Below, piece by piece: positions 7,236-20,183 of a stretch of 64,000 nt of DNA. Made by a program: the position numbers and the translations under genes. Each line of letters begins with the position of its first letter. Positions within the stretch are counted from its first letter, which is position 1. Below the pieces are notes generated by a model. It did no database searches and was not told the DNA's origin. It worked only from the letters and a program-made list of their open reading frames with translations. Source of the DNA: Escherichia phage ECO340P2; the sequence record OP172792; one strand, written 5' to 3'.

Positions 7236-7238
7236 GCT

Positions 7239-7460: not shown

Positions 7461-7493
7461 GGTGTTTCCTTGTTAGTAGTGGTTTCTCTTCTC

Positions 7494-7532
7494 TATAGCG
7501 CCCATTGTAAGGCGCTATAACGAAAAGTCAAC
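7494..7532 (-). promoter_or_regulatory. promoter TTGACT-N16-TACAAT embedded in a hairpin (TATAGCGCC/GGCGCTATA)
   Basis: -10 lies in the loop of a 9-bp inverted repeat. Confidence 0.45.
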
Positions 7533-7534
7533 GA

Positions 7535-7702: not shown

Positions 7703-7726
7703 GGTGTTTTCCTCTTCTCTTTGTTA

Positions 7727-7788
7727 GGCGGTGGACCATTCCGCCGCCTTGATGTAATACAGTTTACTTTATTTTATTAAGATTGCAA
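7727..7788 (-). promoter_or_regulatory. early promoter (TTGCAA) + variant leader hairpin
   Basis: same hairpin variant as 4756-4776. Confidence 0.5.
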
Positions 7789-7794
7789 GCGGTT

Positions 7795-8010
7795 TTATGA
7801 AATAATTGTCAAAGTAAAATCATAAGACTGATTTAATTTATATTGTACTTTATTGCCGTAGTAGTCACCTTTACGTAAAGATCCGCGAATACCTATCACA
7901 TCCTTTACATCTTTAAGACTTTTTACGCCTGTAATGTCTTTATTGAAATACTCGTCATCTGAAAATAAAACTTGACTTGCATTTTTTAACAGTGTGCGGA
8001 TATTAGCCAT
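7795..8010 (-). CDS. hypothetical small early protein
   Basis: track ORF trimmed to ATG 8010. Confidence 0.5.
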   Translation of the reverse strand: MANIRTLLKNASQVLFSDDEYFNKDITGVKSLKDVKDVIGIRGSLRKGDYYGNKVQYKLNQSYDFTLTIIS

Positions 8011-8031
8011 CGTGATAATCTCTCTTCTTGT

Positions 8032-8089
8032 TGGCGGCACCATTGCCGCCCTACGTAATACAGTTTACTCTTTTTCTTTCCAGTGTCAA
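8032..8089 (-). promoter_or_regulatory. early promoter (TTGACA-N16-TAAACT) + leader hairpin GGCGGCAccatTGCCGCC
   Basis: canonical copy. Confidence 0.65.
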
Positions 8090-8098
8090 CAATCTTTT

Positions 8099-8326
8099 TC
8101 AGATTATTTCATCCAGGCATAACAGGCGATCAACGTTGAGATCGGTTAGGCTGATGGTTGGCACCTGGTAGGATTCGATGTACTCAACACTAGCCCATTG
8201 CCCGAAATTAGCGACCGCCCAGCTATTCAAGGAAGATTGCAGATCATCCCCTTTCTTCTCGGTGATAACTGCTACTGTCTGGAAGTTGCCAACGGTGCCG
8301 GATACGCGAACAATAATGATAGCCAT
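8099..8326 (-). CDS. hypothetical small early protein
   Basis: ORF with AGAAGAGAGAAA RBS. Confidence 0.55.
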   Translation of the reverse strand: MAIIIVRVSGTVGNFQTVAVITEKKGDDLQSSLNSWAVANFGQWASVEYIESYQVPTISLTDLNVDRLLCLDEII

Positions 8327-8350
8327 GATGATTTCTCTCTTCTGTTAGGC

Positions 8351-8405
8351 GGGGCGCTTGTCGCCCCTATGTGATACATTTTACACTAATTTAAAACGTT
8401 GTCAA
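8351..8405 (-). promoter_or_regulatory. early promoter + leader hairpin GGGGCGcttgtCGCCCC
   Basis: TGTCAA 8400-8405. Confidence 0.55.
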
Positions 8406-8414
8406 CTGCTTTTA

Positions 8415-8654
8415 TTACATTCCAACCATTGCGGCGCGGATACTGGATTTACTGAACTTGTAACCGTCTGGCGTTTTATCTTGTCCAGTTTGTTCCAGAA
8501 ATAACATCATATGACGGGCTGCATCATTACGATTAGTATTAGCGTCGATAAACTCTTTCGCCAACCGATATAATGACTCATCGTTATTAATCCAAAGGCT
8601 TACATTCCAATGAGTTTTATTTTTGTGACCTAAGAACATTTTTGATTTAGCCAT
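8415..8654 (-). CDS. hypothetical early protein
   Basis: track ORF trimmed to ATG 8654 downstream of leader hairpin. Confidence 0.5.
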   Translation of the reverse strand: MAKSKMFLGHKNKTHWNVSLWINNDESLYRLAKEFIDANTNRNDAARHMMLFLEQTGQDKTPDGYKFSKSSIRAAMVGM

Positions 8655-8688
8655 GATGTTAATCTCTTTTTCAGTGAGGCGGGAACTA

Positions 8689-8747
8689 TTCCCGCTCTCG
8701 ATGTAAAACATTTTACGCTTTTTCTTTCTGTTGTCAATGCTTTTTAT
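8689..8747 (-). promoter_or_regulatory. early promoter + leader hairpin GCGGGAActaTTCCCGC
   Basis: TGTCAA 8742-8747. Confidence 0.55.
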
Positions 8748-9109
8748 AAATCTTTTTTACGTTTAACATCGCTTGCATGACTGTATACAGTGATCCCATT
8801 GTCACGGCAAAAACGGGAAAGATATGTGCCGCGTGAAAACTCCTTGCCTTCAAGGTTGATAACCTTGCTAAATTCTTCCAGGGCGACGGTATCAAAATGA
8901 TCACCATAACCATATTGAAACGGAACGTTAACCACTTGAATCAATTTACCGCCGATCTCAACGTCAACCATTAAAGAAAAATATGTGTTACCGTAGGACT
9001 GTTGAAACCAGCGACGGGCGCTAATATGCACCGCCTCAATGCTGGATAGTTCAATTTTAGCAGTATTAGCCAAGGTAGCATAAGCGGAAACATTGATATT
9101 AATAGCCAT
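8744..9109 (-). CDS. hypothetical early protein
   Basis: ORF with AAAAGG RBS. Confidence 0.55.
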   Translation of the reverse strand: MAININVSAYATLANTAKIELSSIEAVHISARRWFQQSYGNTYFSLMVDVEIGGKLIQVVNVPFQYGYGDHFDTVALEEFSKVINLEGKEFSRGTYLSRFCRDNGITVYSHASDVKRKKDL

Positions 9110-9129
9110 GATGATAACCTTTTATTGTT

Positions 9130-9186
9130 GGCGGCACCATTGCCGCCCTACGTGATAAACTATACCAGAATTTTAAATAGTGTCAA
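9130..9186 (-). promoter_or_regulatory. early promoter + leader hairpin GGCGGCAccatTGCCGCC
   Basis: TGTCAA 9181-9186. Confidence 0.65.
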
Positions 9187-9192
9187 ATGTTT

Positions 9193-9555
9193 TTATTCGT
9201 AAATTTTGCCGCTTTCTACCCATACCGTAACACGGCGCATATTATCCCAAGTGTCTTGATCCAAGTTTAAGCCGTGCAACTCTTCGGTACTTCCCAGACC
9301 AGGTACCGCCTTGTTGTAAGTTGCATATAAGCGCCCTTGATACTCATACGCCAGGGTGAGATCCGTTTGAATCATCTTTTTAAGCATAGCGTTAAGCATC
9401 ATATTAGCGGCATGTTGATCACGTTTTAGCGGTAACATGTCAATAAGGGCGCGATAAGCTGAAATATGAATATCAACCGTTTCACGTGGTAAATTTTTCA
9501 TATCATCGCGGAAAGATACCAGATTAAACATGATAGTATTGATTTGCTTGCTCAT
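9193..9555 (-). CDS. hypothetical early protein
   Basis: ORF with AAAAAGGG RBS. Confidence 0.55.
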   Translation of the reverse strand: MSKQINTIMFNLVSFRDDMKNLPRETVDIHISAYRALIDMLPLKRDQHAANMMLNAMLKKMIQTDLTLAYEYQGRLYATYNKAVPGLGSTEELHGLNLDQDTWDNMRRVTVWVESGKIYE

Positions 9556-9566
9556 TGTGTTACCCT

Positions 9567-9627
9567 TTTTTGTTTTGGCGGGGAAGTATTCCGCCGCCCT
9601 ATGTGATACATCTTATCAGATTAAAAA
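9567..9627 (-). promoter_or_regulatory. early promoter (TTGACA-N16-TAAGAT) + leader hairpin
   Basis: read on minus strand. Confidence 0.6.
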
Positions 9628-9658
9628 ACGTTGTCAAGAATATTTTTAAAAATAATTT

Positions 9659-9940
9659 TTAGCTATATGATCCGCACCGCTCGCAATAGTGATCATCGTC
9701 GTCATCTGCCACCTGGCTGATAAAGTGATCAACCTTCATTTTCAGGTTATTATAATTGTTTTCAACTTCTTTTAATCTTTCTTGGTAGTATTCCAGGGCT
9801 TCAACATATGCCGCCTCAGCCGTTTTTTCACGCATAGCTAAATTCATGCCGCGCGTATCATCGTACAGCCAAAAACCATCAGTGCATTCACTCATTGAAA
9901 GCGTAGGGCTTAACTCTTTATGACTAATTACCTTGCTCAT
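9659..9940 (-). CDS. hypothetical early protein (C-terminal CxxC)
   Basis: track ORF trimmed to ATG 9940. Confidence 0.45.
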   Translation of the reverse strand: MSKVISHKELSPTLSMSECTDGFWLYDDTRGMNLAMREKTAEAAYVEALEYYQERLKEVENNYNNLKMKVDHFISQVADDDDDHYCERCGSYS

Positions 9941-9950
9941 AGTGTGCGCC

Positions 9951-10055
9951 TTATAGAAGGATTGAAATAACAATTGCTACAGTGATCCACACTGGAACGG
10001 CTAGAATGATAGCGTTAATCGTTCCAACCGTCAAGCTATTTTCTTTATTAATCAT
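9951..10055 (-). CDS. small hydrophobic membrane peptide (34 aa)
   Basis: hand-translated ORF directly after leader hairpin. Confidence 0.4.
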   Translation of the reverse strand: MINKENSLTVGTINAIILAVPVWITVAIVISILL

Positions 10056-10084
10056 TGTAAACCTTTTATATAATTTCACTATGA

Positions 10085-10141
10085 GCGGCACCATTGCCGC
10101 CCTACGTGGTAAATATTATGCTAGTGGCGGCGATATGTCAA
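10085..10141 (-). promoter_or_regulatory. early promoter (TTGACA-N17-TAATAT) + leader hairpin
   Basis: read on minus strand. Confidence 0.6.
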
Positions 10142-10695
10142 AGGCTATTTTCAAAGTTTTCTAGCGCGATCCTTTTTTCTTCCTCTGTCGGCTGATAATC
10201 AGGAAAAGCATCAATACACAACAACGGCGGGATCTCTTCGTACTCTTCCTCTTCCGTTGTCTCCTCGTCTTCCTCCTGGGCTATGGCTGCAATTTTGGCT
10301 AATTTTCTTTCAGCTTGAATCAGTTTACCATCAAGTACATTTTTTGCCATGTTGTAAGCGGTCCAGGTGATGCGCTTATTTTCCAGGGCTTCATCAAGCG
10401 CCGCTATCTTGCTGGGATATTCATCAAGGACACGAAAAGCCGGATCAACCTTGTACAAAGGATTATCTTTCGCGCCGTCGCTAGGATCTTCCGCACTGGA
10501 TAAATCAGCGTTACCATTTGCCAGCCAACCAGGGCGCACATGACGCGCTTTTACGTTGCCGTTACTACGTGCTAACCTGTTACCTATTTGCTCACCACTA
10601 TAGCCCGTTGATTCATCGACAAGATGATCGGGAATGATGCGCGGATCATCTGCCTCATGCTTTACCCAAGACTGGATCACATATTCACGCCCCAT
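10138..10695 (-). CDS. hypothetical early protein with acidic stretch
   Basis: ORF; ATG 10695 with AAGGTGG RBS; EEDEETTEEEEYEE run. Confidence 0.55.
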   Translation of the reverse strand: MGREYVIQSWVKHEADDPRIIPDHLVDESTGYSGEQIGNRLARSNGNVKARHVRPGWLANGNADLSSAEDPSDGAKDNPLYKVDPAFRVLDEYPSKIAALDEALENKRITWTAYNMAKNVLDGKLIQAERKLAKIAAIAQEEDEETTEEEEYEEIPPLLCIDAFPDYQPTEEEKRIALENFENSL

Positions 10696-10696
10696 A

Positions 10697-10954
10697 TTAA
10701 CCACCTTTTTTCAACAATTGACATACTTTAAAAAGACTTGCGGAATCCTTGCAAGGGTAGAAAGATGTACGATAGTCACGTACGCCAACCTTGCGGATCT
10801 CGATGTTCTCGCATGTTGTTTGATCAAAGATATTTATTTCATCACGCCCCCTTATATAAACATAGTGAGGATGGATCAAAGCATACTTAGCTAATCTGTA
10901 AAAAGCGTTATCTTTGAACGCGATCACGTGACCTTTTAACTTGATGTAAAACAT
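10697..10954 (-). CDS. hypothetical early protein
   Basis: ORF with TAAGGTGA RBS. Confidence 0.55.
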   Translation of the reverse strand: MFYIKLKGHVIAFKDNAFYRLAKYALIHPHYVYIRGRDEINIFDQTTCENIEIRKVGVRDYRTSFYPCKDSASLFKVCQLLKKGG

Positions 10955-10978
10955 TTTGTCACCTTACAAATAGCGGGA

Positions 10979-11034
10979 ACTATTCCCGCCTTATGCAACA
11001 TATTAGTAAATTATTCGCTAATGTCAAGCCTTAA
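10979..11034 (-). promoter_or_regulatory. early promoter + leader hairpin GCGGGAActaTTCCCGC
   Basis: TGTCAA 11029-11034. Confidence 0.55.
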
Positions 11035-11303
11035 AGCAAAAATGCTACATCTTGCGCTTTTAGTGTAGTGTCAACCATTTTCGGGCTTTTATAATCAACA
11101 AACCGCGCGGTTTTTTCAATAGCGAAACCTAAATAATCTTGCTTGTTGAAATTACATTCTTTCTTAAATGTTTCCCGCGCCACGGCGATCGCTGCGTCCA
11201 GGGATAAACGACCATCAATATTAATATTAGCGAAAGATCCGCCACCGCTCATAGGTTTACCAGTGGTGCCAGTTACAATCATTGTTGCGCTATATGATGC
11301 CAT
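11031..11303 (-). CDS. hypothetical early protein
   Basis: ORF with AGAAGAGAGAAAAA RBS. Confidence 0.55.
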   Translation of the reverse strand: MASYSATMIVTGTTGKPMSGGGSFANINIDGRLSLDAAIAVARETFKKECNFNKQDYLGFAIEKTARFVDYKSPKMVDTTLKAQDVAFLL

Positions 11304-11326
11304 GATTTTTCTCTCTTCTGTTAGGC

Positions 11327-11382
11327 GGGGCGCTTGTCGCCCCTATGTGATACATCTTATCAGGTTGTTGCCTGTTGTCAAT
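11327..11382 (-). promoter_or_regulatory. early promoter + leader hairpin GGGGCGcttgtCGCCCC
   Basis: TGTCAA 11377-11382. Confidence 0.55.
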
Positions 11383-11387
11383 ACTTT

Positions 11388-11585
11388 TTATTCAAGCCCT
11401 ACGATATGCAAAACACGGCGATCAGCAATAGCGTGCTGGTCTTCTGTTATAACGCACATTTCTACCAGTGAATCAAGAAAGGAAAGCACAGTAATATATT
11501 CGTCATCGGGTACACTCATTTCATTAGTACCGTTTACCATTACGTTGATTTGTCCTGCTTTCGCTACAATGTGCAATGTTGCCAT
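11388..11585 (-). CDS. hypothetical small early protein
   Basis: ORF with GGAG RBS. Confidence 0.5.
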   Translation of the reverse strand: MATLHIVAKAGQINVMVNGTNEMSVPDDEYITVLSFLDSLVEMCVITEDQHAIADRRVLHIVGLE

Positions 11586-11780
11586 GATCTTAACTCCAGG
11601 TGATAAATGATGTTTTTGTTTGTTGACGGTGGATTATGGAGATCCTCACCTTTGCCCGTCCTACATTGCACCCTCCTGTTGTTTATTGTCGTTGTGCCTC
11701 GCCCCCCTCGACAAGATGAATACTACGCTACCCCCTGGCGAACGTCAATCACTTTTCAATCTTTTTCATTTCTTTTTTGC

Positions 11781-11809
11781 TTGCTATCTATAAAGGAAAG
11801 GGCTATTAT
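11781..11809 (+). promoter_or_regulatory. sigma70-like promoter TTGCTA-N17-TATTAT
   Basis: hexamers read directly. Confidence 0.45.
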
Positions 11810-11856
11810 CTTTCTACCGCGCCAACCAGGGCGCACAACAAAGAAAGGGCGACACC

Positions 11857-12120
11857 ATGACTACTACATTACATCTTATGCACTCGTTAGGCTGGCAAGG
11901 CGGCACGGTGCACCAAGTAGCAAGCGCAACGGGCTTAAAGGTTGAAACCGTGCTTACCCTGGGCGATCATAAGGTGGAAGAGATAGACCATTTTGATCCG
12001 TTTGCTGATGGTTATTTGTGGGCGCTCAGTGGCGGCGGGGAAAGCAAGATCCCGCCAGGGGCGCGGGGCGATATGTATTTTTGGTTAGGTGTCCTCTCCT
12101 GGCAAGAAAACAAAAAATAA
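11857..12120 (+). CDS. hypothetical protein in GC-rich island (possible moron)
   Basis: 87-aa ORF with AAAGGG RBS; local GC clearly above flanking DNA. Confidence 0.35.
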   Translation: MTTTLHLMHSLGWQGGTVHQVASATGLKVETVLTLGDHKVEEIDHFDPFADGYLWALSGGGESKIPPGARGDMYFWLGVLSWQENKK

Positions 12121-12122
12121 TC

Positions 12123-12151
12123 TTGACAAGCCCAGGGATCGGGCTTATACT
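12123..12151 (+). promoter_or_regulatory. sigma70-like promoter TTGACA-N17-TATACT
   Basis: near-consensus hexamers; no credible ORF downstream. Confidence 0.55.
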
Positions 12152-12378
12152 GCTTTACATACAGAAGAGGAAGCGCCACCCCACGGCGTAAAGGCGGGGC
12201 TAACATACCAGGGCGCTGGTTGGAAGGTTGATCGCCGGGAGGCTGGACGCTATACATTTGTAAAGAAATGTAAAGACTAAAATAATTGCTTGCTTTCCAG
12301 GGTAGATCTGTTATTCTTATTACATGGCGAGGGGACACGGGAGCGCGAGACAAACACCACTCCTGCGCGTCATTCCCT

Positions 12379-12541
12379 AAATGAGAATGATTATCATTTA
12401 CCTTCTTAAATAAGAATCAATCTCATTTGAGTAGTTGAATGAGAATCATTCCTATTCGCAAAGTGAGAATAAGTCTCATTTACAACATTAAATGCGAATC
12501 AATCTCATTTGCATTTACATATGAGAATTGTTCTCATTCTC
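12379..12541. repeat. six palindromic iteron/operator-like sites (approx. AAATGAGAAT-N3-5-TCTCATTT)
   Basis: sites at about 12379, 12409, 12437, 12460, 12488, 12519; the last (ATGAGAAttgTTCTCAT) is a perfect palindrome. Confidence 0.6.
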
Positions 12542-12560
12542 ACCTGCATAAAAATTTTTG

Positions 12561-12600
12561 TAAACTTTAAATTTTGCTTTTGTACTTTCATTTTTGTAAA
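12561..12600. repeat. AT-rich 40-bp direct repeat, copy 1
   Basis: about 35/40 identity with 12700-12739. Confidence 0.55.
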
Positions 12601-12699
12601 AGCAAAAAAACTTTAAATACTGTGGGCGCGCAAAATTTTTAAAATTTTCCTTGACTTTTAAGTCTTATTCTTGTATGTAACATTTTAAGATAATTTTCC

Positions 12700-12739
12700 T
12701 AAACTTTAAATTTTGGTTTTCAACTTTCACTTTTGTAAA
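12700..12739. repeat. AT-rich 40-bp direct repeat, copy 2
   Basis: about 35/40 identity with 12561-12600. Confidence 0.55.
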
Positions 12740-12888
12740 TTCTTAAAAAGTTTAAATAATTTGAGGAATTTTTGAGATAACAGATAGTGAGAATTTGAGA
12801 TAACCTTTAATCTTGTTGGTAAACCTTCAGGAACCCATCTAGATCAAATCCTAGCGATGCAAACTGAAAAGATAAGTGTTCGTATAGG

Positions 12889-12933
12889 ACAAAATAATAG
12901 GCTCTCTACAGTGCTGTAGGAGCCTTATTTCTG
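12889..12933. terminator. bidirectional intrinsic terminator (AGGCTCtCTACAG-tg-CTGTAGGAGCCT flanked by T-runs)
   Basis: 12-bp stem with T-rich tracts on both strands; downstream of the leftward operon ending at 12990. Confidence 0.6.
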
Positions 12934-12989
12934 TGCTACAAAGTGACACCTTTGTTTTAAAAATGAAAAAAGTTAAAATATCACAAATA

Positions 12990-13523
12990 TCATCTTTGCG
13001 GTATTTTGTCTGGGAAAAGTATTTCTATCAGCTTGTTATGATATTTACCTAAAAGATTCTGCCCTTTCCAGGTGGCAGGGTTTAGCACCCCTGGTTCATA
13101 CATCCCCATTCCAATTCCGTATACCTTATCGTAAGGACTTGCTTCAACAAATGTTTTGTATTGATATAGACGTAAATCGGCATACAAGTCTGGATTCTGT
13201 ACATACTTCAAGCATAAGCCTCGCATTACAATACGCTCACGATTCTCTTCCCATACTTTGTTATCGAAGCCAGCTACTGCCCTACCCATACGTTTGTAAT
13301 AAGCTTGTATCTTCTCATCTTCTCGTTTTAAACTATGAGTCAGAATAGCCTGTGCAGTGCTGTGGTCATTAAAAAGCAAAGCTTTACGCCACATCATATA
13401 TTGTTCTACACAGTTAAATGTTTCATTGTATCCTAGCTCCGTCTCTGTAAATGGTGCAAGATACCAATTACTAAACACATCTTTATGTGAAAAGAAGAAT
13501 ACATATTCATCAGTTATTCTCAT
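12990..13523 (-). CDS. NADAR (YbiA-like, DUF1768) domain protein; putative ADP-ribosyl/N-glycoside hydrolase
   Basis: recalled YbiA-family pattern: FFFS..FSNWY..PF, EQYMMWRKALLF, YYKRMGRAV, C-terminal LGKYHNKL; AGGAGG RBS. Confidence 0.7.
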   Translation of the reverse strand: MRITDEYVFFFSHKDVFSNWYLAPFTETELGYNETFNCVEQYMMWRKALLFNDHSTAQAILTHSLKREDEKIQAYYKRMGRAVAGFDNKVWEENRERIVMRGLCLKYVQNPDLYADLRLYQYKTFVEASPYDKVYGIGMGMYEPGVLNPATWKGQNLLGKYHNKLIEILFPDKIPQR

Positions 13524-13698
13524 TTTTCATACCTCCTAAGACTTCAGCTTGCCCGTCTTGAAAAGCTTTCATCAGAACTATCTTAAGATTGACTTCCAAA
13601 CGTTCTTCATCCTTTCTATAACAATCCAACACTGCCTTAAGTTCATCATAGTGGTTCAGGATAGGTTTAAAGATTTCATGATCTGCTAAACGTGCCAT
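13510..13698 (-). CDS. hypothetical protein
   Basis: ORF in operon. Confidence 0.5.
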   Translation of the reverse strand: MARLADHEIFKPILNHYDELKAVLDCYRKDEERLEVNLKIVLMKAFQDGQAEVLGGMKNENN

Positions 13699-13711
13699 AG
13701 TTCCTCCTTTG

Positions 13712-14077
13712 TTAGTCCATCCACCAGTAGCCGTAAACCGCGTCTGCGTCGATGAGTTTGTGTTTGTTGTTCCGCATGTAGTCTAAGATAAGTAGACGTT
13801 TATTGTATCTGGAGAGATTATGACCCTCTTTTCCGCCATAGTCAAAATATTTTGCAAGATCTTTACATTCAAACAAAATTAGTTCAGGAGTTTCCTCACA
13901 CTGGTCTGTCTGGTACACTTGACGAATGATCATGTATACATCATCGTCTTCCGCTAAATGCTCTACTGGTCCACATCCAGCAGGAACAAATTCATAATCC
14001 CATCGAATCAGATGTGTCTCTACTGCTTCAAAGAAGTCCATTCTTTCGTTGCGCATAATTTGAACGTCAACTAACAT
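13712..14077 (-). CDS. hypothetical protein
   Basis: ORF in operon. Confidence 0.5.
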   Translation of the reverse strand: MLVDVQIMRNERMDFFEAVETHLIRWDYEFVPAGCGPVEHLAEDDDVYMIIRQVYQTDQCEETPELILFECKDLAKYFDYGGKEGHNLSRYNKRLLILDYMRNNKHKLIDADAVYGYWWMD

Positions 14078-15279
14078 GTTTCCTCCTGTAATGTTCCACC
14101 ATAAAGTTTATAAATATTTTGTATTGATGCCATGCAAGATAACTCCACTGTCTCTGTGTAGCCATCTGGCATAGAATATTTGCTCACTGCTTCCGTGTGA
14201 AGGACACGCTTACAACGCTTTTCTGCATCTTTGCATTGCTTCACAGTAGGGAAGTGCCACACTTGGCTCTGTTTCATAGTAAACACATTACGACTATTTT
14301 GTTCTTTGATACGGCGATTACTATTATTAGCAATACCAAACTTCAGTGCACAGATAATATCTTGCTCATCGTAAATATAATTAATGTAGGCTTGTTGTTG
14401 ATTCATACCTGCACAACCAGGGCAACCACACCCCTTATTTAACCAATTGTTAGCACTACACACATGTTTCCCATGATCCTTGCAACCATATTCAAAATCC
14501 CCAAGTATAGAAGCTTTCCCGATCCACCCCAACCACACGTACCCTCTACGTTCTACGTCACTTTTTGCTCTAAATGTCACCTCTTCTTCAGAATATTTGT
14601 AACTGGCAGAACAACGACAAGGGCGCATACCCTGTTTTAATGAACTACCTCTACCGATAAAATATCCCGTTCCTACCCCAGCTTTGGAAAACTCATCTAT
14701 AGCACAGATAGGGCAAAATACACTCCAAAGTATTTCGCTCCTCCCAGCTTTTTCCCCTGTATTAGTGAAGGTAGTGCCTTCGGGAAACACACCCGTACTC
14801 ATGAAATCTTGTATGTGCTGATCGTCTGAAAGCTTATTGTGTTTACCTATACCCTCTAAACGACAAACTGGACAACCTTGTTTATTATTCTTAAAGTTGT
14901 CTATGGTAGATGTGTTAAACTCGTGACCCCTATCACAACGTAAGATTACTCGTGTCTTTTTAGCTTTCAGCCATTCTCCGTAGATACCCAAGAAGCGCCA
15001 ACCTCTTTTTAACGCTTCTTCTTCACACTCTTTCTCTTGGTCCTCTCTGCTCTTCGTTCTCTTCTCCCTTTTTGTTAATTCACCACAAGAAGGGCAAGAC
15101 TTCCCACTTTTAAAGTTAGATATTTTACAAGTATCCCATACACCGTGCACAGGACATTCTATCAGGAGTTTAGTCTCACACCCTTTCCATTCTTTATGGC
15201 CTAAAATTTTATATCCTTTAGAGAGAGCTATGATCTCGCATTCTGCTTTATATTCTTCCCAACTTTTAGCTTTACTCAT
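14071..15279 (-). CDS. Cys-rich protein with three tandem zinc-ribbon-like repeats
   Basis: three repeats of C-x-x-HG-x-[WF]...NF...G-x-x-CP-x-C (CPVHGVW..CPSCG; CDRGHEF..CPVCR; CKDHGKH..CPGC). Confidence 0.55.
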   Translation of the reverse strand: MSKAKSWEEYKAECEIIALSKGYKILGHKEWKGCETKLLIECPVHGVWDTCKISNFKSGKSCPSCGELTKREKRTKSREDQEKECEEEALKRGWRFLGIYGEWLKAKKTRVILRCDRGHEFNTSTIDNFKNNKQGCPVCRLEGIGKHNKLSDDQHIQDFMSTGVFPEGTTFTNTGEKAGRSEILWSVFCPICAIDEFSKAGVGTGYFIGRGSSLKQGMRPCRCSASYKYSEEEVTFRAKSDVERRGYVWLGWIGKASILGDFEYGCKDHGKHVCSANNWLNKGCGCPGCAGMNQQQAYINYIYDEQDIICALKFGIANNSNRRIKEQNSRNVFTMKQSQVWHFPTVKQCKDAEKRCKRVLHTEAVSKYSMPDGYTETVELSCMASIQNIYKLYGGTLQEETC

Positions 15280-15320
15280 GATTTCATCCTATAAGAAATG
15301 CCCCTTGCGGGGCATCTTTA

Positions 15321-16460
15321 TTAGAACACGCTACCCAGTGTGGTGGAACGTTGTGTTACAGGCTCCAGCACCACTCGCAGAGTGTTTCCTGGCGTAGTGC
15401 TCATAACCAGAATCTTACCACCTTCAATCAGATCACAAGTTAGACCATCAGCCGTTGCACATAGATCAATATGTGGATCACCATCTTCATCTAGGATAAC
15501 ATAACTATTGGTTTCCATTGCTTCCACTTCATCATCTTTCAAGCTTTGTAGATAGATGTTCAGGGAACAAGCACCCGACAAAAACTTAGTAGGGGTAAAG
15601 TCGTGCCAGTTATTGATCCAATTCACCTTCAGGGTTTTGCCATTAGCTACGATAGAAGCCACATTCCATTTAGCATCGTTGCCTAAAGAAATACCCATCA
15701 TTTCAAGACATTCTTTAAAAGTCATTTTTGGATAGAAATTCAATTCTTCTACAATGCCTTGAATAACATCGAAAGACAACTCTGTGCTAACATCCCATAA
15801 ACGTTGGAAGTTATCTACGTGCTTTTTATTTACCAAGTTCTTATCTAAGTAATCTAACATAGTTTCACTAGACAGTTTATCGTAATTGAAACTGTAATAG
15901 ATACGACTAGGACGGTTTACAAAATATTCCGAGATATAACCACTATTTTTAGTGAGGATGTAAAGTTTATTCCCACTTCCTGTTCCATCCAACAAGGTCA
16001 ACAGTGCTTCCTGATCTTCTTTCTTAGCGTACACTTTATCAAATTCGTCAAATAAAACAACAGCACGATCTGTAATTTTACTCATAAATTCTAAGAAGCC
16101 AGCATCTGTGTAAGGCTGTGTAACCAAAATGGTTGGAATACCTAAACCTTCTGTGGACATTAGAGACATGCTAATTAGTTTAGCTAACATCGTCTTACCA
16201 CTGCCTTTTGTCCCTGTCAGTAACACTCCAGTATTTTTACCTTCTTTACTACGACGAGCAAATGTTTTAATAACATGTGCGGCGCGGTCTTTAGTTTCCC
16301 CATAAAGAGTGTTCGGAAGAGAGAAACTTTCACCACGCACTAAAGAGTAGTTACCGTGCGGATCGCAGTTGACAACCCAAACTCCAGCAGGAAGTTTATT
16401 AGCTTCAACGCCATATTCCTTATTTACAACAGCGACATCTCCAAAAATAGTGTATTTCAT
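15321..16460 (-). CDS. AAA-type ATPase
   Basis: Walker A LLTGTKGSGKTMLAKL and Walker B VVLFDEFDK. Confidence 0.7.
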   Translation of the reverse strand: MKYTIFGDVAVVNKEYGVEANKLPAGVWVVNCDPHGNYSLVRGESFSLPNTLYGETKDRAAHVIKTFARRSKEGKNTGVLLTGTKGSGKTMLAKLISMSLMSTEGLGIPTILVTQPYTDAGFLEFMSKITDRAVVLFDEFDKVYAKKEDQEALLTLLDGTGSGNKLYILTKNSGYISEYFVNRPSRIYYSFNYDKLSSETMLDYLDKNLVNKKHVDNFQRLWDVSTELSFDVIQGIVEELNFYPKMTFKECLEMMGISLGNDAKWNVASIVANGKTLKVNWINNWHDFTPTKFLSGACSLNIYLQSLKDDEVEAMETNSYVILDEDGDPHIDLCATADGLTCDLIEGGKILVMSTTPGNTLRVVLEPVTQRSTTLGSVF

Positions 16461-16816
16461 TAGAACGTTTCTCCTTTTAAAATAATTACTGTAAACTTTG
16501 CAGTTTTTTCACTCTTAATATTCTTGACTAATAAGTATTCTCCTCCAGGGGCATCTTTGTATTGTTTAATAGCTACTATTTCATTTTTGCAAGTAGCTAT
16601 AATCGAATAAAAAGGACGTTCCGTGTTATCTTCTTTTCCTGTATATGCCTCAACATCTTTGCACTCTTCTAGAACACCATTCCCAGGTGTATAGTAAAAC
16701 TTGTTGCCTGTGATCACAACATCTTTACCAATATCTGTTTTAACTGCTACAAATTTTTGAGCGTAAGTGGTGAAGCTTACGGTAGCCAGCAATGTGGCTA
16801 AGATTAGTTTTTTCAT
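16460..16816 (-). CDS. secreted protein (signal peptide)
   Basis: MKKLILATLLATVSFTTYA after trimming track ORF to ATG 16816. Confidence 0.55.
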   Translation of the reverse strand: MKKLILATLLATVSFTTYAQKFVAVKTDIGKDVVITGNKFYYTPGNGVLEECKDVEAYTGKEDNTERPFYSIIATCKNEIVAIKQYKDAPGGEYLLVKNIKSEKTAKFTVIILKGETF

Positions 16817-16827
16817 AAACTTCCCTC

Positions 16828-16992
16828 CTATTCCCACAACATACAAATCGCAGCGACAAACATATTAGCAATAGCCGCACCAAGAACTATAAACATCGCC
16901 AGTTCAGAACAATATTCACCAACCAGAGGGGATACTATTGCACAGAGTAATCCCAATGTCAAACACAAGTTGATGATGAAGTTTAAAATCAT
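16828..16992 (-). CDS. small membrane protein (54 aa)
   Basis: hand-translated hydrophobic ORF in gap. Confidence 0.4.
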   Translation of the reverse strand: MILNFIINLCLTLGLLCAIVSPLVGEYCSELAMFIVLGAAIANMFVAAICMLWE

Positions 16993-17001
16993 ACTCTCTC
17001 C

Positions 17002-17193
17002 TTACAACCAACCTTTTGCCTGATAGCCTTTAGAAAATCCATCTTCCCATTCTTCGAATTCCTTTTTGTGTGTCATTGGACAGTATGGATTTACTTTATT
17101 AAACATACCAAACTTGAATCCTGCTGTATACCCTTTCTTAAAAGCTGTTGATTCTAAAGAGATCATATTCTTTCTCCTCTTAGAACTCGACAA
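17002..17193 (-). CDS. hypothetical protein
   Basis: ORF in operon. Confidence 0.5.
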   Translation of the reverse strand: MSSSKRRKNMISLESTAFKKGYTAGFKFGMFNKVNPYCPMTHKKEFEEWEDGFSKGYQAKGWL

Positions 17194-17431
17194 TAGTTTT
17201 GTCTAAATGTTCTGCTTCGACTTGGGATAATGTTAACACCTGCACCAAACCTCTGTCAATACCAATTTTAATGACTTGCAAATAATCACCAAAAAGATCT
17301 GATAAAGAAATAGCATGTTCCGTAACTACAATAACTTCATTACCTTTAGTGTATTCTTTCCACACCCGACCACATTTATAAATGTAATCTTTCTGATCTT
17401 CAGTAATCATTTTAGGTTTGATACTTAACAT
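17180..17431 (-). CDS. hypothetical protein
   Basis: ORF in operon. Confidence 0.5.
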   Translation of the reverse strand: MLSIKPKMITEDQKDYIYKCGRVWKEYTKGNEVIVVTEHAISLSDLFGDYLQVIKIGIDRGLVQVLTLSQVEAEHLDKTIVEF

Positions 17432-17775
17432 TACATACTCCCGTATTCTGGTTCAATATTATGTTTACGACAAATAGTATCCCAACGTTCATTACCAAAA
17501 CCAAAACTTCTTCCATGTAGAGCGTTAAATGCGAAATGCTCTGCCAACCACAATACTACATCATCAGGATCTGTGTCAAGAGGAATTCTAAACTCTCGGT
17601 CATAACGCATACGCAGAATAAAATCCTTATCATCTTCAAGGAGATACATGTAACTTTTAGCCCGTGATGCCAAATCAAAGAAAGGAGGCTCATCTTTCCA
17701 AACGTGACGCTCAACTTCAACACCATGATCAACTACCAAAGTGGCAATTACATCTCTCATCTCTTTACTAAACAT
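17431..17775 (-). CDS. hypothetical protein
   Basis: ORF in operon. Confidence 0.5.
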   Translation of the reverse strand: MFSKEMRDVIATLVVDHGVEVERHVWKDEPPFFDLASRAKSYMYLLEDDKDFILRMRYDREFRIPLDTDPDDVVLWLAEHFAFNALHGRSFGFGNERWDTICRKHNIEPEYGSM

Positions 17776-17784
17776 ATTTCCTCC

Positions 17785-17973
17785 TCAACTAATCAGTTCG
17801 GCTGCTTTACACAGGTACACAACTAACGGATTCAAAGCAAAACCAATCCCAGCTAAAATCTTAACTTTATTACTTTCTGCTTGCATTAACGAAACAGCAA
17901 ACCCAACTACAGTAACAATCATGAATATCATTAAGAACATATAAGTGATTTCACCAGACATATTTAGCTCCAA
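17785..17973 (-). CDS. small membrane protein (two hydrophobic segments)
   Basis: hydrophobic helices; overlaps next gene start. Confidence 0.5.
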   Translation of the reverse strand: MELNMSGEITYMFLMIFMIVTVVGFAVSLMQAESNKVKILAGIGFALNPLVVYLCKAAELIS

Positions 17974-18323
17974 AGATTATCAAAATAGCGAGCAAATAAA
18001 AGACGACCTTGTAATCGTGCTTCTCGTTCCTCTTCAGTATACACGATTTCTGGATGACCACAATCAATAAATGCATTTTCCATAGCTTCCAGAATGTCCA
18101 ACCATTCCTTTTTCCCTTTGGCTTCTTCCTCATCTGTATATGGTGCACTTTTGTTTGGACATACATTGTGCATCACTTTGGTCGGAATCATGACAAACGT
18201 GCTTTTGTTTGCCTTCTCACGGAAGGCTTTAAGCCCTTTGTAAATCACCTCGCCCAAGGCTGCATCTAAATCCATGAGATCATTTTCTTCTATTTGAATT
18301 TCATCATGTACAATTTTCATCAC
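17964..18323 (-). CDS. hypothetical protein
   Basis: ORF in operon. Confidence 0.5.
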   Translation of the reverse strand: MMKIVHDEIQIEENDLMDLDAALGEVIYKGLKAFREKANKSTFVMIPTKVMHNVCPNKSAPYTDEEEAKGKKEWLDILEAMENAFIDCGHPEIVYTEEEREARLQGRLLFARYFDNLWS

Positions 18324-18604
18324 ACCTTCTCCCGCTCTGCGTCCAATTTCAACAAGAAGGCGGCATACTCTTCTGAACCTTGATGCAAGAACATACGATA
18401 AGAACTTACCAGTTTCTTCGTCGTTGTATAACGTTCCATTTCACCAACAACTCCAGTACCAAGAGTGTAGAGCACAACACCTTCGACTCCAACATGGGTT
18501 ACTACTTCAACCAAATCTGTGTTATCCCAATGGTAGTTAGGTGACACAATAAGATCGCCCACTGCCAGTTTAATGTTTGCTGCTTCGTCTTGTGAATAAT
18601 ACAT
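18320..18604 (-). CDS. hypothetical protein
   Basis: ORF in operon. Confidence 0.5.
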   Translation of the reverse strand: MYYSQDEAANIKLAVGDLIVSPNYHWDNTDLVEVVTHVGVEGVVLYTLGTGVVGEMERYTTTKKLVSSYRMFLHQGSEEYAAFLLKLDAEREKV

Positions 18605-18616
18605 TTGGTTCTCCTC

Positions 18617-18910
18617 TCACATTAAGACACGTTTTGTGTTGATGGGAGCATTATCAAACATGTTAAGAACATTGTCAAGCAGTTTTACTAATTCATTTGT
18701 AATTTGTTCTTTTGAACGGGAGGAAGTGAGCACTTTGCTTTCACCAACGATATGCATAACTTTTATAGGAGCATCTAAAATAATGTTGTGCTGACGATCC
18801 TCTTCAAAAGAAGCCAACCATTTCTCGTTGTTACCGTGTAAGGCTACAATCACACCAAAACCGTTAATTGTTTCAGAAATATTCTTAGTTGCTAAAGTAA
18901 TGTTCATCAT
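18617..18910 (-). CDS. hypothetical protein (first gene of leftward operon)
   Basis: ORF with AAGAGAGGTAG RBS. Confidence 0.55.
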   Translation of the reverse strand: MMNITLATKNISETINGFGVIVALHGNNEKWLASFEEDRQHNIILDAPIKVMHIVGESKVLTSSRSKEQITNELVKLLDNVLNMFDNAPINTKRVLM

Positions 18911-18935
18911 CTACCTCTCTTGTTAATGTTCATAC

Positions 18936-18963
18936 ATGATACCTGAAAATAATTTCAGATCAA
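18936..18963 (-). promoter_or_regulatory. leftward promoter TTGATC-N16-TATCAT
   Basis: hexamers on minus strand; back-to-back with rightward promoter. Confidence 0.5.
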
Positions 18964-18966
18964 GTA

Positions 18967-18994
18967 TTGACATGCTTTTTAGTCCTGTTAAGAT
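18967..18994 (+). promoter_or_regulatory. rightward promoter TTGACA-N16-TAAGAT
   Basis: hexamers read directly; 30 nt upstream of gene at 19025. Confidence 0.6.
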
Positions 18995-19024
18995 CAACTC
19001 ATACAAAACGAGAGGAGAAAACAA

Positions 19025-19459
19025 ATGCAAAACATCAAACTAACTTGGACCGAAGCTAAAGAAGCAATGAAGGAAGGTAGACGTGTTGAGCACAGCTATT
19101 TTTGCGGTGGCGAATGGTTTGAGATGCGAGATGGTGTTATTCTCGACGAACACGGTTATAACATGGAAACTTGGTTCAGAGGGGAAGCTTGGCAAGAAAA
19201 TGATTGGTCGGTAATTGAAAAAGAAGACAGTAAGGAAGAAGGGGTGTTGTCTAATGTAGAACGCGAGATGAGGGAAACAAAGATGCCTGCTTTGGATTTT
19301 GTATACCTGGAAGAACTTGTGGCAGCCTCTTTTGTAGCAGGGCATCTTTGGAAGACACCTGTTAGCCGACTGGAGAACCAAAATAACCCGTCTGCTCGTA
19401 ATCACAAGCTTTATAAGGGTAAAGGTCACAACAAATTAAAGAAAGGAAAGAAGAAATGA
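19025..19459 (+). CDS. DUF2829-like (Tad2-like) domain protein with Lys-rich C-terminus
   Basis: N-terminal KLTWTEAKEAMKEGRRV...W...EAWQENDWSVIE resembles DUF2829 pattern from memory. Confidence 0.5.
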   Translation: MQNIKLTWTEAKEAMKEGRRVEHSYFCGGEWFEMRDGVILDEHGYNMETWFRGEAWQENDWSVIEKEDSKEEGVLSNVEREMRETKMPALDFVYLEELVAASFVAGHLWKTPVSRLENQNNPSARNHKLYKGKGHNKLKKGKKK

Positions 19460-19602
19460 TCTACAAAAACAAGTTCACTGGTTGTCTCCGTAAATTTATC
19501 GATAAGAAAGGGTATGTTTCTCTTGACAACGGGGTTACATGGACAGAGAATGGCACTTCAGAACAGTTGATCAAAGCTTTGTCTTACTACGAGGAGGTTT
19601 AA
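19456..19602 (+). CDS. hypothetical small protein (48 aa)
   Basis: hand-translated ORF filling gap; ATGA overlap with upstream stop. Confidence 0.45.
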   Translation: MIYKNKFTGCLRKFIDKKGYVSLDNGVTWTENGTSEQLIKALSYYEEV

Positions 19603-19926
19603 ATGTCAAACAGTCTGTTTAGCGTGTCAATTGCACCACGTGTCAATATCCGTTGTCAGTTTGTTACTTTACCTGGTGTAACGCATATCGCATTAGAATA
19701 CGATCCCCGCTCACGAGACAACCCAATCACAGGGAAAATTGATTGTGCTTATGGGAACTTTGTTATGGATCACCAAACCCTCTTATGCTGTGTGCAACGC
19801 TTACAGGCAGGATCTTTATACATCTTTAAGAAAACGGTGTTCCAAGAGATTGCTCAAGCAGTTGAAAGTGGTATGGAGACTCTTAACGCTATGATTGAAG
19901 CAGCCAACAAGAAGGAGGTTTTATGA
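19603..19926 (+). CDS. hypothetical protein
   Basis: ORF with GGAGG RBS. Confidence 0.55.
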   Translation: MSNSLFSVSIAPRVNIRCQFVTLPGVTHIALEYDPRSRDNPITGKIDCAYGNFVMDHQTLLCCVQRLQAGSLYIFKKTVFQEIAQAVESGMETLNAMIEAANKKEVL

Positions 19927-20183
19927 CACTTTATCACGTAACTACAGAAGGCGACTGTGAAGGCCGCACTACAAAAGATTTGGGGTATGTTGAAGCAGAT
20001 TCACCTGAACATGCTATCAAATACCTGCATTCCATCGGGAAGTATGCGGGTTATGAGTATACTATCTATGAGGTTGAAATTATTAACCTTATACAAGTGG
20101 CAACTCCTATGGCAGAGTTGAAACATCTTAAGGCAAAAGTAAGACCTGGTATAGTGTCCGATTACAAAGGGGAAGTAAAGTGA
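19923..20183 (+). CDS. hypothetical protein
   Basis: ORF with AAGGAGG RBS. Confidence 0.55.
   Translation: MTLYHVTTEGDCEGRTTKDLGYVEADSPEHAIKYLHSIGKYAGYEYTIYEVEIINLIQVATPMAELKHLKAKVRPGIVSDYKGEVK

What the first reader, a model, noticed from the sequence alone, without database searches (positions are those of the whole stretch)
19025..19459. DUF2829 (Tad2-like) domain protein as first gene of the rightward operon
The N-terminal 65 residues resemble the DUF2829 fold used by Tad2, a phage protein that sequesters Thoeris signalling nucleotides. Here it is fused to a Lys-rich tail and placed right after the rightward promoter. It may be a sponge for host immune signalling molecules.
Basis: partly seen in the sequence, partly recalled or inferred. 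Interest (0 to 1): 0.55.

Follow-up and report, generated by a model that had tools for sequence, protein, structure and literature searches.

The report
Mini Tad2-fold phage protein, basic tail
This is a real early gene of a phAPEC8-like E. coli phage whose first 65 residues adopt a stripped-down version of the Tad2 (DUF2829) fold but lack Tad2's ligand-contact residues, and which ends in an invariant lysine-rich peptide of unknown target, so it is a plausible but unproven counter-defence or host-takeover protein.

Summary
ORF 19025-19459 (+, 144 aa) is a conserved gene of Phapecoctavirus-like phages. It is the first gene after a near-consensus, conserved sigma-70 promoter at the genome's main divergent point.

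- Pfam's Tad2-like model (PF11195) does not match the protein, even at E<=10. Close relatives score 15-19 bits against a cut-off of 25.
- A profile of the N-domain family aligns to a real DUF2829 profile (HHalign probability 93.8%).
- A high-confidence model (pLDDT 91.7) has Tad2 structures as its 13 best PDB matches (TM about 0.65-0.69).

It is therefore a "mini-Tad2" sister family. It lacks the beta2-beta3 insertion. Four of SPO1 Tad2's six gcADPR contact residues are replaced. The family conserves its own His/Glu/Glu/Phe/Trp set in the equivalent loops.

The most conserved part is not the Tad2-like domain but the C-terminal peptide K[LI]xKG[KR]GHN[KR]L[QK]K[RG]KKK. Its dN/dS is 0.05 at normal dS. 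It has no homologue outside this lineage.

Sister proteins carry SEC-C knuckles or other basic tails at the same position.

Function remains untested. My best guess is a ligand- or partner-binding module tethered to a polyanionic host structure.

The parts
18967..18994 (+). Sigma-70-type early promoter: TTGACA, 16-nt spacer, extended -10 TGtTAAGAT
   Evidence: The consensus scan scores 10 of 12 with a TG. The TTGAC and TAAGAT/TATGAT elements are conserved in 8 relatives, including the distant L004. It is one of 7 such sites in the window, against 0.26 expected by chance.
18995..19024 (+). Conserved 5' leader with the AGGAG Shine-Dalgarno at 19013-19017
   Evidence: The stretch CATAC-AAA-GAGAGGAGA-AAACA-ATG is nearly invariant across relatives. 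No Rfam family matches 18300-20000.
19025..19459 (+). Whole CDS, 144 aa (PHROG 22208)
   Evidence: dN/dS is below 1 in all segments.
19025..19219 (+). N-terminal mini-Tad2-fold domain (residues 1-65): helix 8-16, strands 20-23, 32-35, 38-41, short helix 55-58, strand 61-64
   Evidence: The model has pLDDT 91.7 and pTM 0.78. Its top 13 Foldseek PDB hits are all Tad2. HHalign against DUF2829 gives 93.8% probability. There is no PF11195 hit. The family-conserved residues are A11, G18, H23, F26, E30, E42, G44, W56 and W61.
19220..19285 (+). Variable acidic linker (residues 66-87)
   Evidence: It is length-variable and has the highest dN/dS, 0.55. Model pLDDT is low here.
19286..19354 (+). Conserved D[FY]xxLE amphipathic helix segment (residues 88-110)
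   Evidence: D91, L95 and E96 are conserved even in distant homologues. A helix is predicted at 92-104 with low confidence.
19355..19456 (+). Basic C-terminal tail (residues 111-144, net charge +10). The core motif K128-K144, KLYKGKGHNKLKKGKKK, spans 19406-19456.
   Evidence: The motif is invariant in 22 close homologues. It is retained as K[LI]xKG[KR]GHN[KR]L[QK]K[RG]KKK in distant ones. Residues 128-140 have dN/dS 0.05 at dS 0.68. Synonymous codon variation is visible.
19456..19602 (+). Translationally coupled downstream 48-aa gene (ATGA overlap). Its Shine-Dalgarno lies inside the last Lys/Gly codons of the tail.
   Evidence: The 48-49-aa gene follows the homologue in most relatives.

Best explanation
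This is an early, host-RNA-polymerase-transcribed accessory protein built from two modules.

Module 1 (residues 1-65) is a minimal Tad2-fold domain. It is a remote homologue of DUF2829 and belongs to a sister family of mostly stand-alone 60-70 aa phage proteins. It keeps the helix plus antiparallel sheet and the two aromatic pocket positions of Tad2. It has a different set of conserved polar residues (H23, E30, E42) in the loops that form Tad2's ligand pocket.

I infer that module 1 binds a small, probably nucleotide-derived, ligand or a partner other than gcADPR.

Module 2 is the D[FY]xxLE helix plus the invariant polybasic peptide. I infer that it tethers the protein to a polyanionic host structure such as the ribosome, nucleic acid or an acidic protein.

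Shown here: gene reality, early-promoter position, fold, remote homology, lack of Tad2 contact residues, and peptide-level selection on the tail.

Inferred: ligand binding, tethering and a counter-defence or host-takeover role.
For: Gene and promoter.

First-gene position is conserved in L001, L004, L008, L009, L010, L012 and L013. The gene is second in L011 and third in L005.

Fold and homology:
- HHalign gives 93.8% probability and E 1.8e-7.
- Foldseek against the PDB returns Tad2 as the top 13 hits, with probability up to 0.99, TMq 0.64-0.69 (0.51 and 0.61 for the two ModTad2 chains) and rmsd 2.6-3.0 A for the best.
- BFVD returns DUF2829/Tad2-like annotated proteins at E 3.5e-4 to 4e-3.
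- 17 of 134 family members give sub-threshold PF11195 hits.

Family-specific conserved residues H23, F26, E30, E42, G44, W56 and W61 fall in the beta1-beta2 loop, the beta3-beta4 turn and the short helix. These are the elements that build the Tad2 pocket.

Tail under protein-level selection.

The C-terminal module occurs once without the Tad2-like domain, in P0292 on L016, with its own SD.

Sister proteins end in SEC-C knuckles or other basic tails.

The neighbourhood and relatives carry counter-defence-type genes: NADAR in the window, and Gad2 and NADAR in L005.
Against: - No experiment exists on any member of this mini family.
- Four of six Tad2 ligand contacts are not conserved, and the insertion that contributes to dimerisation and cyclic-dinucleotide binding is missing. 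A Tad2-like tetramer with an inter-subunit pocket may therefore not form.
- The alignment of the C-terminal half of the domain is low-confidence.
- Conserved F26, W56 and W61 could be purely structural.
- Known sponges (Tad1, Tad2, Acb2) are, to my knowledge, not described as needing a basic tail.
- The tail's target is unknown, and neither the PDB nor BLASTP gave any significant match for it.
Confidence: 0.38

Rival explanations
1. The tail is the business end. In this reading the protein is a host-takeover factor whose invariant polybasic C-terminal peptide binds the ribosome (for example the empty mRNA channel, as the basic tails of ArfA, SmpB and ArfB do) or nucleic acid. The Tad2-fold domain would serve only as an oligomerisation or scaffold module.
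For: - The tail is the most constrained segment, with dN/dS 0.05, and is kept in homologues whose N-domain is only about 34-45% identical.
- The C-module exists without the N-domain in L016.
- The tail begins with KGKG. ArfA's conserved KGKGS motif lies in its basic tail, which occupies the empty mRNA channel (PMC6299226; the ArfA sequence was verified).
- Four sister proteins carry a SEC-C knuckle at the same position. SecA's SEC-C metal-binding domain binds 70S ribosomes (PMC6620043).
Against: - BLASTP finds no alignment between ArfA and this protein, and profile and phmmer searches of the PDB find nothing.
- KGKG is a short low-complexity string.
- The tail has no cysteines, so it is not a SEC-C knuckle.
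- The N-domain is itself under purifying selection (dN/dS 0.21) with conserved polar loop residues. That is more than a scaffold would need.
Confidence: 0.27
2. It is a canonical Tad2: a tetrameric sponge that sequesters 1''-3'/1''-2' gcADPR and thereby blocks Thoeris.
For: Same fold and remote homology. Early expression suits an anti-defence role. The Tad2 family is broad and some members bind other ADPR-derived signals, for example the ModTad2-hisADPR structure 9eib listed.
Against: - No PF11195 hit, while positive controls score 67-89 bits.
- N26, S76, T78 and D79 equivalents are replaced, and W25 becomes F.
- The DUF2829-invariant R18, G23 and D76 are not kept.
- The beta2-beta3 insertion with helix alpha2, which forms one of the two tetramer interfaces, is absent.
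Confidence: 0.08
3. The tail's conservation is a DNA-level artefact, caused by the Shine-Dalgarno and start of the overlapping downstream gene or by a recombination hotspot. Alternatively the ORF is not a functional gene.
For: The last four codons (GGA AAG AAG AAA, then TGA) contain the SD and overlap the ATG of the 48-aa gene.
Against: - Codons 128-140 show ordinary synonymous divergence (dS 0.68 in the close set and about 2 in all sequences), with dN/dS 0.05.
- GGT/GGC/GGA, CAC/CAT, TTA/CTG/CTT and AAA/AAG/CGT alternate freely.
- The motif persists where the downstream gene differs (L004, L011).
- The gene has its own conserved promoter and SD and is kept in more than 100 phage genomes.
Confidence: 0.02
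4. It is an anti-CRISPR of the AcrIIA7 type. AcrIIA7 is a DUF2829 protein reported to antagonise type II CRISPR-Cas.
For: AcrIIA7 and Tad2 are grouped as one family (PMC11724313; discussion).
Against: The AcrIIA7 activity itself was questioned by the Tad2 authors. From general knowledge, E. coli hosts of these phages do not carry type II CRISPR-Cas9 systems. The protein is not a PF11195 member.
Confidence: 0.02

Closest known systems
Tad2 / DUF2829 (Pfam PF11195, Thoeris anti-defence 2; SPO1 Tad2 PDB 8SME/8SMF/8WJE, SptTad2 8WJD, ModTad2 9EIB)
   Same: - N-terminal helix followed by an antiparallel sheet, a short helix and a final Trp-containing strand.
- Shared sequence pattern (M)xxxEAxxAhkxGkkV at the start and D/G-W-x-h-h at the end.
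- The two aromatic pocket positions are retained (F26, W50).
- Phage-encoded, small and early.
- Fold match TM 0.62-0.69, HHalign 93.8%.
   Different: - Below the Pfam threshold: none for this protein, 15-19 bits for relatives against a cut-off of 25.
- About 25 residues shorter, with no beta2-beta3 insertion or helix alpha2.
- GWNG becomes xYF(C/T), and the SQTD contact motif is lost.
- It has its own signature, H23/E30/E42/G44/W56.
- It is fused to an acidic linker, a conserved helix and an invariant polybasic tail that, to my knowledge, characterised Tad2 proteins lack.
Stand-alone 'mini-DUF2829' phage proteins (PHROG 3474; e.g. Shigella phage KPS64 A0A482JJB6, virus sp. ctML55 A0A8S5RI74, Klebsiella phage KpS110 A0A2K9VAK2)
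   Same: These are direct homologues of residues 1-65. PHROG 3474 matches at E 1.3e-29. The profile search gave 192 hits. BFVD TM scores are 0.66-0.94.
   Different: They are the domain alone, at 60-70 aa, and lack the C-terminal helix and basic tail. None has a tested function.
SEC-C motif (PF02810) tails of SecA/YecA-type proteins, and of sister proteins P0098, P0111, P0113 and P0115
   Same: A short, Lys-rich, Gly-x-Gly-containing C-terminal element placed after a flexible linker. It sits at the same position as the tail here in proteins with the same N-domain. The SecA version binds ribosomes (PMC6620043).
   Different: The tail has no Cys or His metal ligands in SEC-C spacing. There is no Pfam hit. 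The resemblance is positional and compositional only.
Basic C-terminal tails of ribosome-rescue factors (ArfA KGKGS motif; SmpB, ArfB, ArfT)
   Same: An unstructured Lys/Gly-rich C-terminal tail containing KGKG. In ArfA, this tail occupies the empty mRNA channel (PMC6299226).
   Different: There is no statistically detectable similarity. The rest of the protein is unrelated. This is a lead, not a test.

Membership tests
Pfam PF11195 Tad2-like (DUF2829) | Scores at or above the curated gathering threshold (25 bits) against the family HMM | tested here: not met
   No hit for the full protein at E<=1 or for residues 1-68 at E<=10. The controls BMBtp3 gp75 and gp74 score 89.2 and 67.4 bits. The relatives tested individually (P0026, P0027, P0056, P0072, P0081) score 14.8-18.6 bits, and across the family 17 of 134 members hit at E<=0.01.
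Tad2 / DUF2829 superfamily (fold level) | [quoted passage not shown] | tested here: met
   The model has pLDDT 91.7 with helices at 8-16 and 55-58 and strands at 20-23, 32-35, 38-41 and 61-64. The top 13 PDB Foldseek hits are all Tad2, with TMq 0.64-0.69 (0.51 and 0.61 for the two ModTad2 chains) and probability up to 0.99. E-values are weak (0.15-1) because the domain is short.
Tad2 / DUF2829 superfamily (homology) | Significant profile-profile similarity to a bona fide DUF2829 alignment | tested here: met
   HHalign of A3 (80 sequences) against A4 (53 PF11195-annotated sequences) gives probability 93.8% and E 1.8e-7. The confident part covers 38 columns: helix, beta1 and beta2. The global alignment gives 80%.
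Tad2 (functional: gcADPR sponge) | Conserved ligand contacts: SPO1 W25, N26, W73, S76, T78, D79 (HgmTad2 W21/N22, S90/T92/D93) | tested here: not met
   The mapping gives F26, C27, W50, G53, E54 and A55. Family-wide, position 27 is mostly T, and positions 53-55 are variable. The mapping of the last four positions rests on a low-confidence part of the alignment.
Tad2 (functional: gcADPR sponge) | Homotetramer (dimer of V-shaped dimers through helix alpha2/strand beta2 and helix alpha1) with inter-subunit pockets | not testable with these tools
   No multimer prediction was available. The alpha2-bearing insertion is absent from the model, which argues against an identical assembly.
Tad2 (functional: cyclic-dinucleotide binding) | Insertion between beta2 and beta5 that forms the cyclic-dinucleotide pocket (HgmTad2 residues 32-72) | tested here: not met
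   The domain is 65 residues long with no insertion. HHalign opens a 23-column gap there.
SEC-C motif (PF02810) | CxC...C[CH] metal-binding knuckle matching the Pfam model | tested here: not met
   No Pfam hit, and the tail has no cysteines. Four sister proteins do match, with best E 1.9e-8.
ArfA-type mRNA-channel-binding tail | Sequence similarity to the ArfA C-terminal tail, and ribosome binding | tested here: inconclusive
   Only the KGKG string is shared. BLASTP finds no alignment and a PDB phmmer search finds no hit. Ribosome binding cannot be tested here.

The most novel reading that the evidence does not exclude
The invariant C-terminal peptide K[LI]xKG[KR]GHN[KR]L[QK]K[RG]KKK may be a new short linear motif that docks a mini-Tad2 ligand-binding domain onto the ribosome or another polyanionic host machine. 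It would be functionally equivalent to the SEC-C knuckles carried at the same position by sister proteins, and reminiscent of the KGKGS mRNA-channel tail of ArfA. The protein would then be a 'tethered sponge' or a translation-directed takeover factor. It would use a ligand specificity different from every characterised Tad2, through a pocket of His23/Glu30/Glu42 plus two aromatics.
Probability: 0.12. Interest if true: 0.8.

Novelty: new variant of a known kind. Interest (0 to 1): 0.45.

Why it matters
Tad2 proteins are among the best-understood phage sponges for bacterial immune signals. Current detection relies on PF11195 or close HMMs.

This locus shows that a sizeable sister family lies just below that threshold. 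The profile search found 192 proteins among 50%-identity cluster representatives. They share the same fold but have a rewired pocket.

If these proteins bind signalling molecules, the catalogue of phage sponges and of the signals they target is incomplete.

The absolutely conserved polybasic tail, exchangeable with SEC-C knuckles in sister proteins, suggests a localisation or second activity not, to my knowledge, described for the known sponges Tad1, Tad2 and Acb2. It also gives a simple handle for experiments, through tail deletion or peptide pull-down.

If the protein proves to be a plain host-takeover factor, the result still warns against reading 'Tad2-like fold' as 'Thoeris inhibitor'.

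Tried and rejected
- Direct sequence searches of the full protein against Pfam, NCBIfam and the PDB gave no meaningful hit.
- The N-domain profile against PDB sequences gave only a non-significant SptTad2 match, E 0.45.
- Searching the window for paralogues of the N-domain found none.
- Searches for the C-terminal module elsewhere:
  - The profile against 5.8 billion proteins returned only lineage members and a few short ORFs.
  - The PDB returned nothing.
  - A back-translated KGKGHNKL pattern in IMG/VR found only the family itself and one chance internal match in an unrelated 225-aa protein.
- The search for related loci with the wide alignment failed, and with the close alignment gave only two loci.
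- ArfA similarity was rejected as statistical evidence, since BLASTP found no alignment.
- Atd1, an anti-TIR protein reported in Phapecoctavirus, was checked and is an unrelated MazG-like pyrophosphatase.
- The E 5e-8 hit to a 2489-aa eukaryotic repeat protein (P0052, 15 weak stretches) was judged a repeat-summed artefact.
- No Rfam family matches in or around the gene.
- Two tool calls failed on parameter limits.

Full report
**1. The observation**

The ORF at 19025-19459 (+) is real and encodes 144 aa. An AGGAG Shine-Dalgarno lies at 19013-19017, 7 nt upstream of the start.

The window is a Phapecoctavirus-type (phAPEC8/ESCO13-like) coliphage. The 2.1-kb region around the gene matches 110 phage records, 69 of them over at least 80% of its length. 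The best matches are about 95-96% identical. In ESCO13 the gene is the hypothetical protein ESCO13_00250.

The gene sits at the main divergence point of this part of the genome. Essentially all genes from about 1 to 18910 are on the minus strand. Those from 19025 to about 55200 are on the plus strand.

The 114-bp intergenic region carries TTGACA, a 16-nt spacer and TG-n-TAAGAT at 18967-18994. This promoter, the leader and the SD are more conserved than the coding sequence across eight relatives, including a distant one, L004. Seven such near-consensus sigma-70 sites occur in the window, against 0.26 expected by chance.

In relatives the homologue is the first rightward gene in seven loci. It is second in one and third in one. 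[quoted passage not shown] is therefore confirmed, and a host-polymerase (early) promoter is the natural reading.

**2. Is the N-terminus DUF2829/Tad2-like?**

The suggested Pfam test is negative.
- There is no PF11195 hit for the protein at E<=1, nor for residues 1-68 at E<=10.
- Two genuine DUF2829 proteins from Bacillus phage BMBtp3 score 89 and 67 bits.
- NCBIfam and direct PDB sequence searches are also negative.

Three independent, more sensitive tests nevertheless agree on a remote relationship.

(a) A profile of the protein searched against 1.84 billion cluster representatives finds 192 proteins at E<=1e-3.
- Nearly all match only positions 5-65, and most are stand-alone 60-70 aa proteins.
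- 17 of 134 of these give sub-threshold PF11195 hits, best E 5.8e-4. The five relatives tested individually score 14.8-18.6 bits against the 25-bit cut-off.

(b) I aligned 80 N-domains (A3) and 53 database proteins pre-annotated PF11195 (A4, obtained through).
- HHalign gives probability 93.8% and E 1.8e-7.
- The confident alignment covers the helix and the first two strands.

(c) With the deeper alignment, AlphaFold gives a pLDDT-91.7, pTM-0.78 model of residues 1-68.
- Its 13 best Foldseek matches in the PDB are all Tad2 structures: SPO1 Tad2, SptTad2 and ModTad2.
- Probability reaches 0.99, TM normalised to the query is 0.64-0.69 (0.51 and 0.61 for the two ModTad2 chains), and rmsd is 2.6-3.0 A for the best.
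- The E-values are weak (0.15-1), as expected for 65 residues.
- In the viral structure library, once its own family is passed, the best matches include proteins annotated DUF2829 or Tad2-like, at E 3.5e-4 to 4e-3.

The fold claim is therefore supported. The domain is a "mini-Tad2" sister family lying just outside the Pfam model.

**3. Does it look like a gcADPR sponge?**

The relevant features of SPO1 Tad2 come from bioRxiv 10.1101/2023.05.01.538930.
- It is a tetramer.
- V-shaped dimers form through helix alpha2 and strand beta2, and these interlock along helix alpha1.
- Each pocket is built from loop beta1-beta2, loop beta3-beta4, strand beta4, loop beta4-alpha3 and helix alpha3.
- The ligand contacts are W25, N26, W73, S76, T78 and D79.

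HgmTad2 mutants W21A/N22A and S90A/T92A/D93A lose binding, and the cyclic-dinucleotide pocket lies in the beta2-beta5 insertion (PMC10680739).

In my DUF2829 alignment the corresponding residues are invariant or nearly so (GWNG, GWLASQTD). In the global HHalign mapping they become F26, C27, W50, G53, E54 and A55.
- The two aromatic walls are kept.
- All four polar contacts are lost.
- The mapping of the last four positions is low-confidence.

The roughly 25-residue insertion, including alpha2, is absent.

The mini family has its own strongly conserved set, counted out of 80 sequences: H23 (69), F26 (78), E30 (78), E42 (76), G44 (75), W56 (58, aromatic in 76) and W61 (76).
- H23, F26 and E30 lie at the end of beta1 and in the beta1-beta2 loop.
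- E42 and G44 lie in the next hairpin turn.
- W56 lies in the short helix.

These are the elements that are homologous to the Tad2 pocket walls. This is what one expects of a related binding site with different chemistry. It is not proof of one, because some of these residues may be structural.

**4. The C-terminal half**

In 22 close homologues the last 23 residues are essentially invariant. In distant homologues the N-domain is only about 34-45% identical and the middle is unalignable (P0022, P0023, P0030 and P0038). The end is still K[LI]xKG[KR]GHN[KR]L[QK]K[RG]KKK, preceded by a conserved D[FY]xxLE helix.

A codon-level analysis of 7 close and 10 total loci gives these dN/dS values:

| Segment | dN/dS |
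|---|---|
| N-domain | 0.21 |
| Acidic linker | 0.55 |
| Helix | 0.27 |
| Tail | 0.14 |
| Residues 128-140 | 0.05 (at dS 0.68) |

Synonymous codons alternate freely in the tail. Selection therefore acts on the peptide. Only the last four codons double as the SD of the overlapping 48-aa gene.

The module has no detectable relative outside this lineage. One 88-aa protein, P0292 on L016, carries the helix and tail behind an unrelated short N-terminus, with its own SD and a non-homologous upstream gene. The C-module thus appears autonomous.

The protein is electrostatically bipolar. The N-domain has net charge -7 and the tail +10.

Among other members of the N-domain family:
- Four end in a SEC-C zinc knuckle (best E 1.9e-8).
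- Several others end in unrelated polybasic tails.

A basic C-terminal element is thus a recurrent, exchangeable partner of this domain.

SecA's SEC-C domain binds 70S ribosomes (PMC6620043). The basic tails of ArfA (conserved KGKGS), SmpB and ArfB bind the empty mRNA channel (PMC6299226). The tail here starts with KGKG, but BLASTP finds no alignment with ArfA. The ribosome is therefore a lead, not a finding.

**5. Context**

- The leftward arm carries a NADAR-domain gene (12993-13523), a CapR-homology-domain protein and an AAA ATPase.
- The rightward arm continues into a UvrD-type helicase and NrdD.
- A related phage has Gad2 and NADAR genes within 6 kb of the homologue.
- Atd1, an anti-TIR protein known from Phapecoctavirus, is an unrelated MazG-like enzyme.
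- I found no paper that studies this protein or the mini family.

**6. Mechanism and ranking**

- Best supported (0.38): a two-module early accessory protein. The mini-Tad2 domain binds a ligand or partner other than gcADPR. The polybasic peptide tethers it to a polyanionic host structure.
- Main rival (0.27): the tail is the effector, binding the ribosome or nucleic acid, and the N-domain is a scaffold.
- A canonical Tad2 gcADPR sponge is unlikely (0.08).
- DNA-level artefact (0.02) and an AcrIIA7-type anti-CRISPR (0.02) are very unlikely.

**7. Novelty and verdict**

Membership in PF11195 is not met, while fold-level and profile-level kinship is met.

I rate this a new variant of a known kind, of moderate interest (0.45). 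Two things make it worth an experiment: the rewired pocket residues, and an invariant, lineage-specific basic peptide under very strong selection. Nothing here yet shows an immune-signal sponge.

Noticed in passing
window 8378-8405(-), 8710-8737(-), 9610-9637(-), 11354-11381(-), 18967-18994(+), 33529-33556(+), 40437-40464(+): Seven near-consensus sigma-70 promoters (TTGACA, 15-17 nt, TAWRAT) against 0.26 expected by chance. They point leftward in the left arm and rightward in the right arm, which suggests several host-polymerase early transcription units.
   Followed up: partly
window 12993-13523 (-): A 177-aa NADAR-domain protein (PF08719, E 1.2e-35), an ADP-ribose-processing family. It is a possible counter-defence gene in the leftward early arm. 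A NADAR gene also lies near the homologue in the related contig L005.
   Followed up: no
window 14074-15279 (-) and 15324-16460 (-): A 402-aa protein with three CapR-homology-domain stretches (PF21817, E 7e-23), next to a 379-aa AAA/STAND-like ATPase. The ATPase is conserved at the same place in relatives.
   Followed up: no
window 19456-19602 (+): The translationally coupled 48-aa downstream protein (PHROG 2381) contains a perfect Asp-box, SLDNGVTW (S-x-D-x-G-x-T-W). It gives a weak BNR hit at E 0.013. A 48-49-aa gene sits at this position in most relatives.
   Followed up: no
L005 1-363 (related contig SRR23814683_8992): A Gad2-family (PF26128, anti-Gabija) gene lies about 5.6 kb from the homologue in a related large phage. 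This is consistent with the region holding counter-defence genes.
   Followed up: no
L004 4339-4914 and 5779-6111 (related contig SRR14865004_51484): In the most distant full-length homologue (221 aa, P0030), the overlapping downstream gene is a Trypsin_2 peptidase rather than the 48-aa protein. A Rap1a-family gene follows it.
   Followed up: no
L016 653-919: An 88-aa protein (P0292) carries the D/N-F-x-E-L-E helix and the KGRGHNKLQKRKKK tail without any Tad2-like domain. It has its own SD, and the upstream gene is an unrelated membrane-like protein. The C-terminal module therefore seems to exist on its own.
   Followed up: partly
protein P0052 (2489 aa, eukaryote-like): The family profile hits 15 tandem repeats of EGDRVEARYKGGSKYYKGKISRVNADGSYNIDYDDGD at a summed E of 5e-8. 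The per-repeat similarity to residues 9-48 (G-x-RVE..Y.GG....G.I...DG.YN) is curious, but I judged it a repeat-summed artefact.
   Followed up: partly
window 18617-18910 (-) and 18320-18604 (-): The first two leftward genes are a DUF7325 protein and a 'phage tudor' domain protein. DUF7325 sits opposite the homologue across the divergent promoter region in five relatives (L009, L010, L012, L013 and the ESCO13 match) and lies close by in L011.
   Followed up: no
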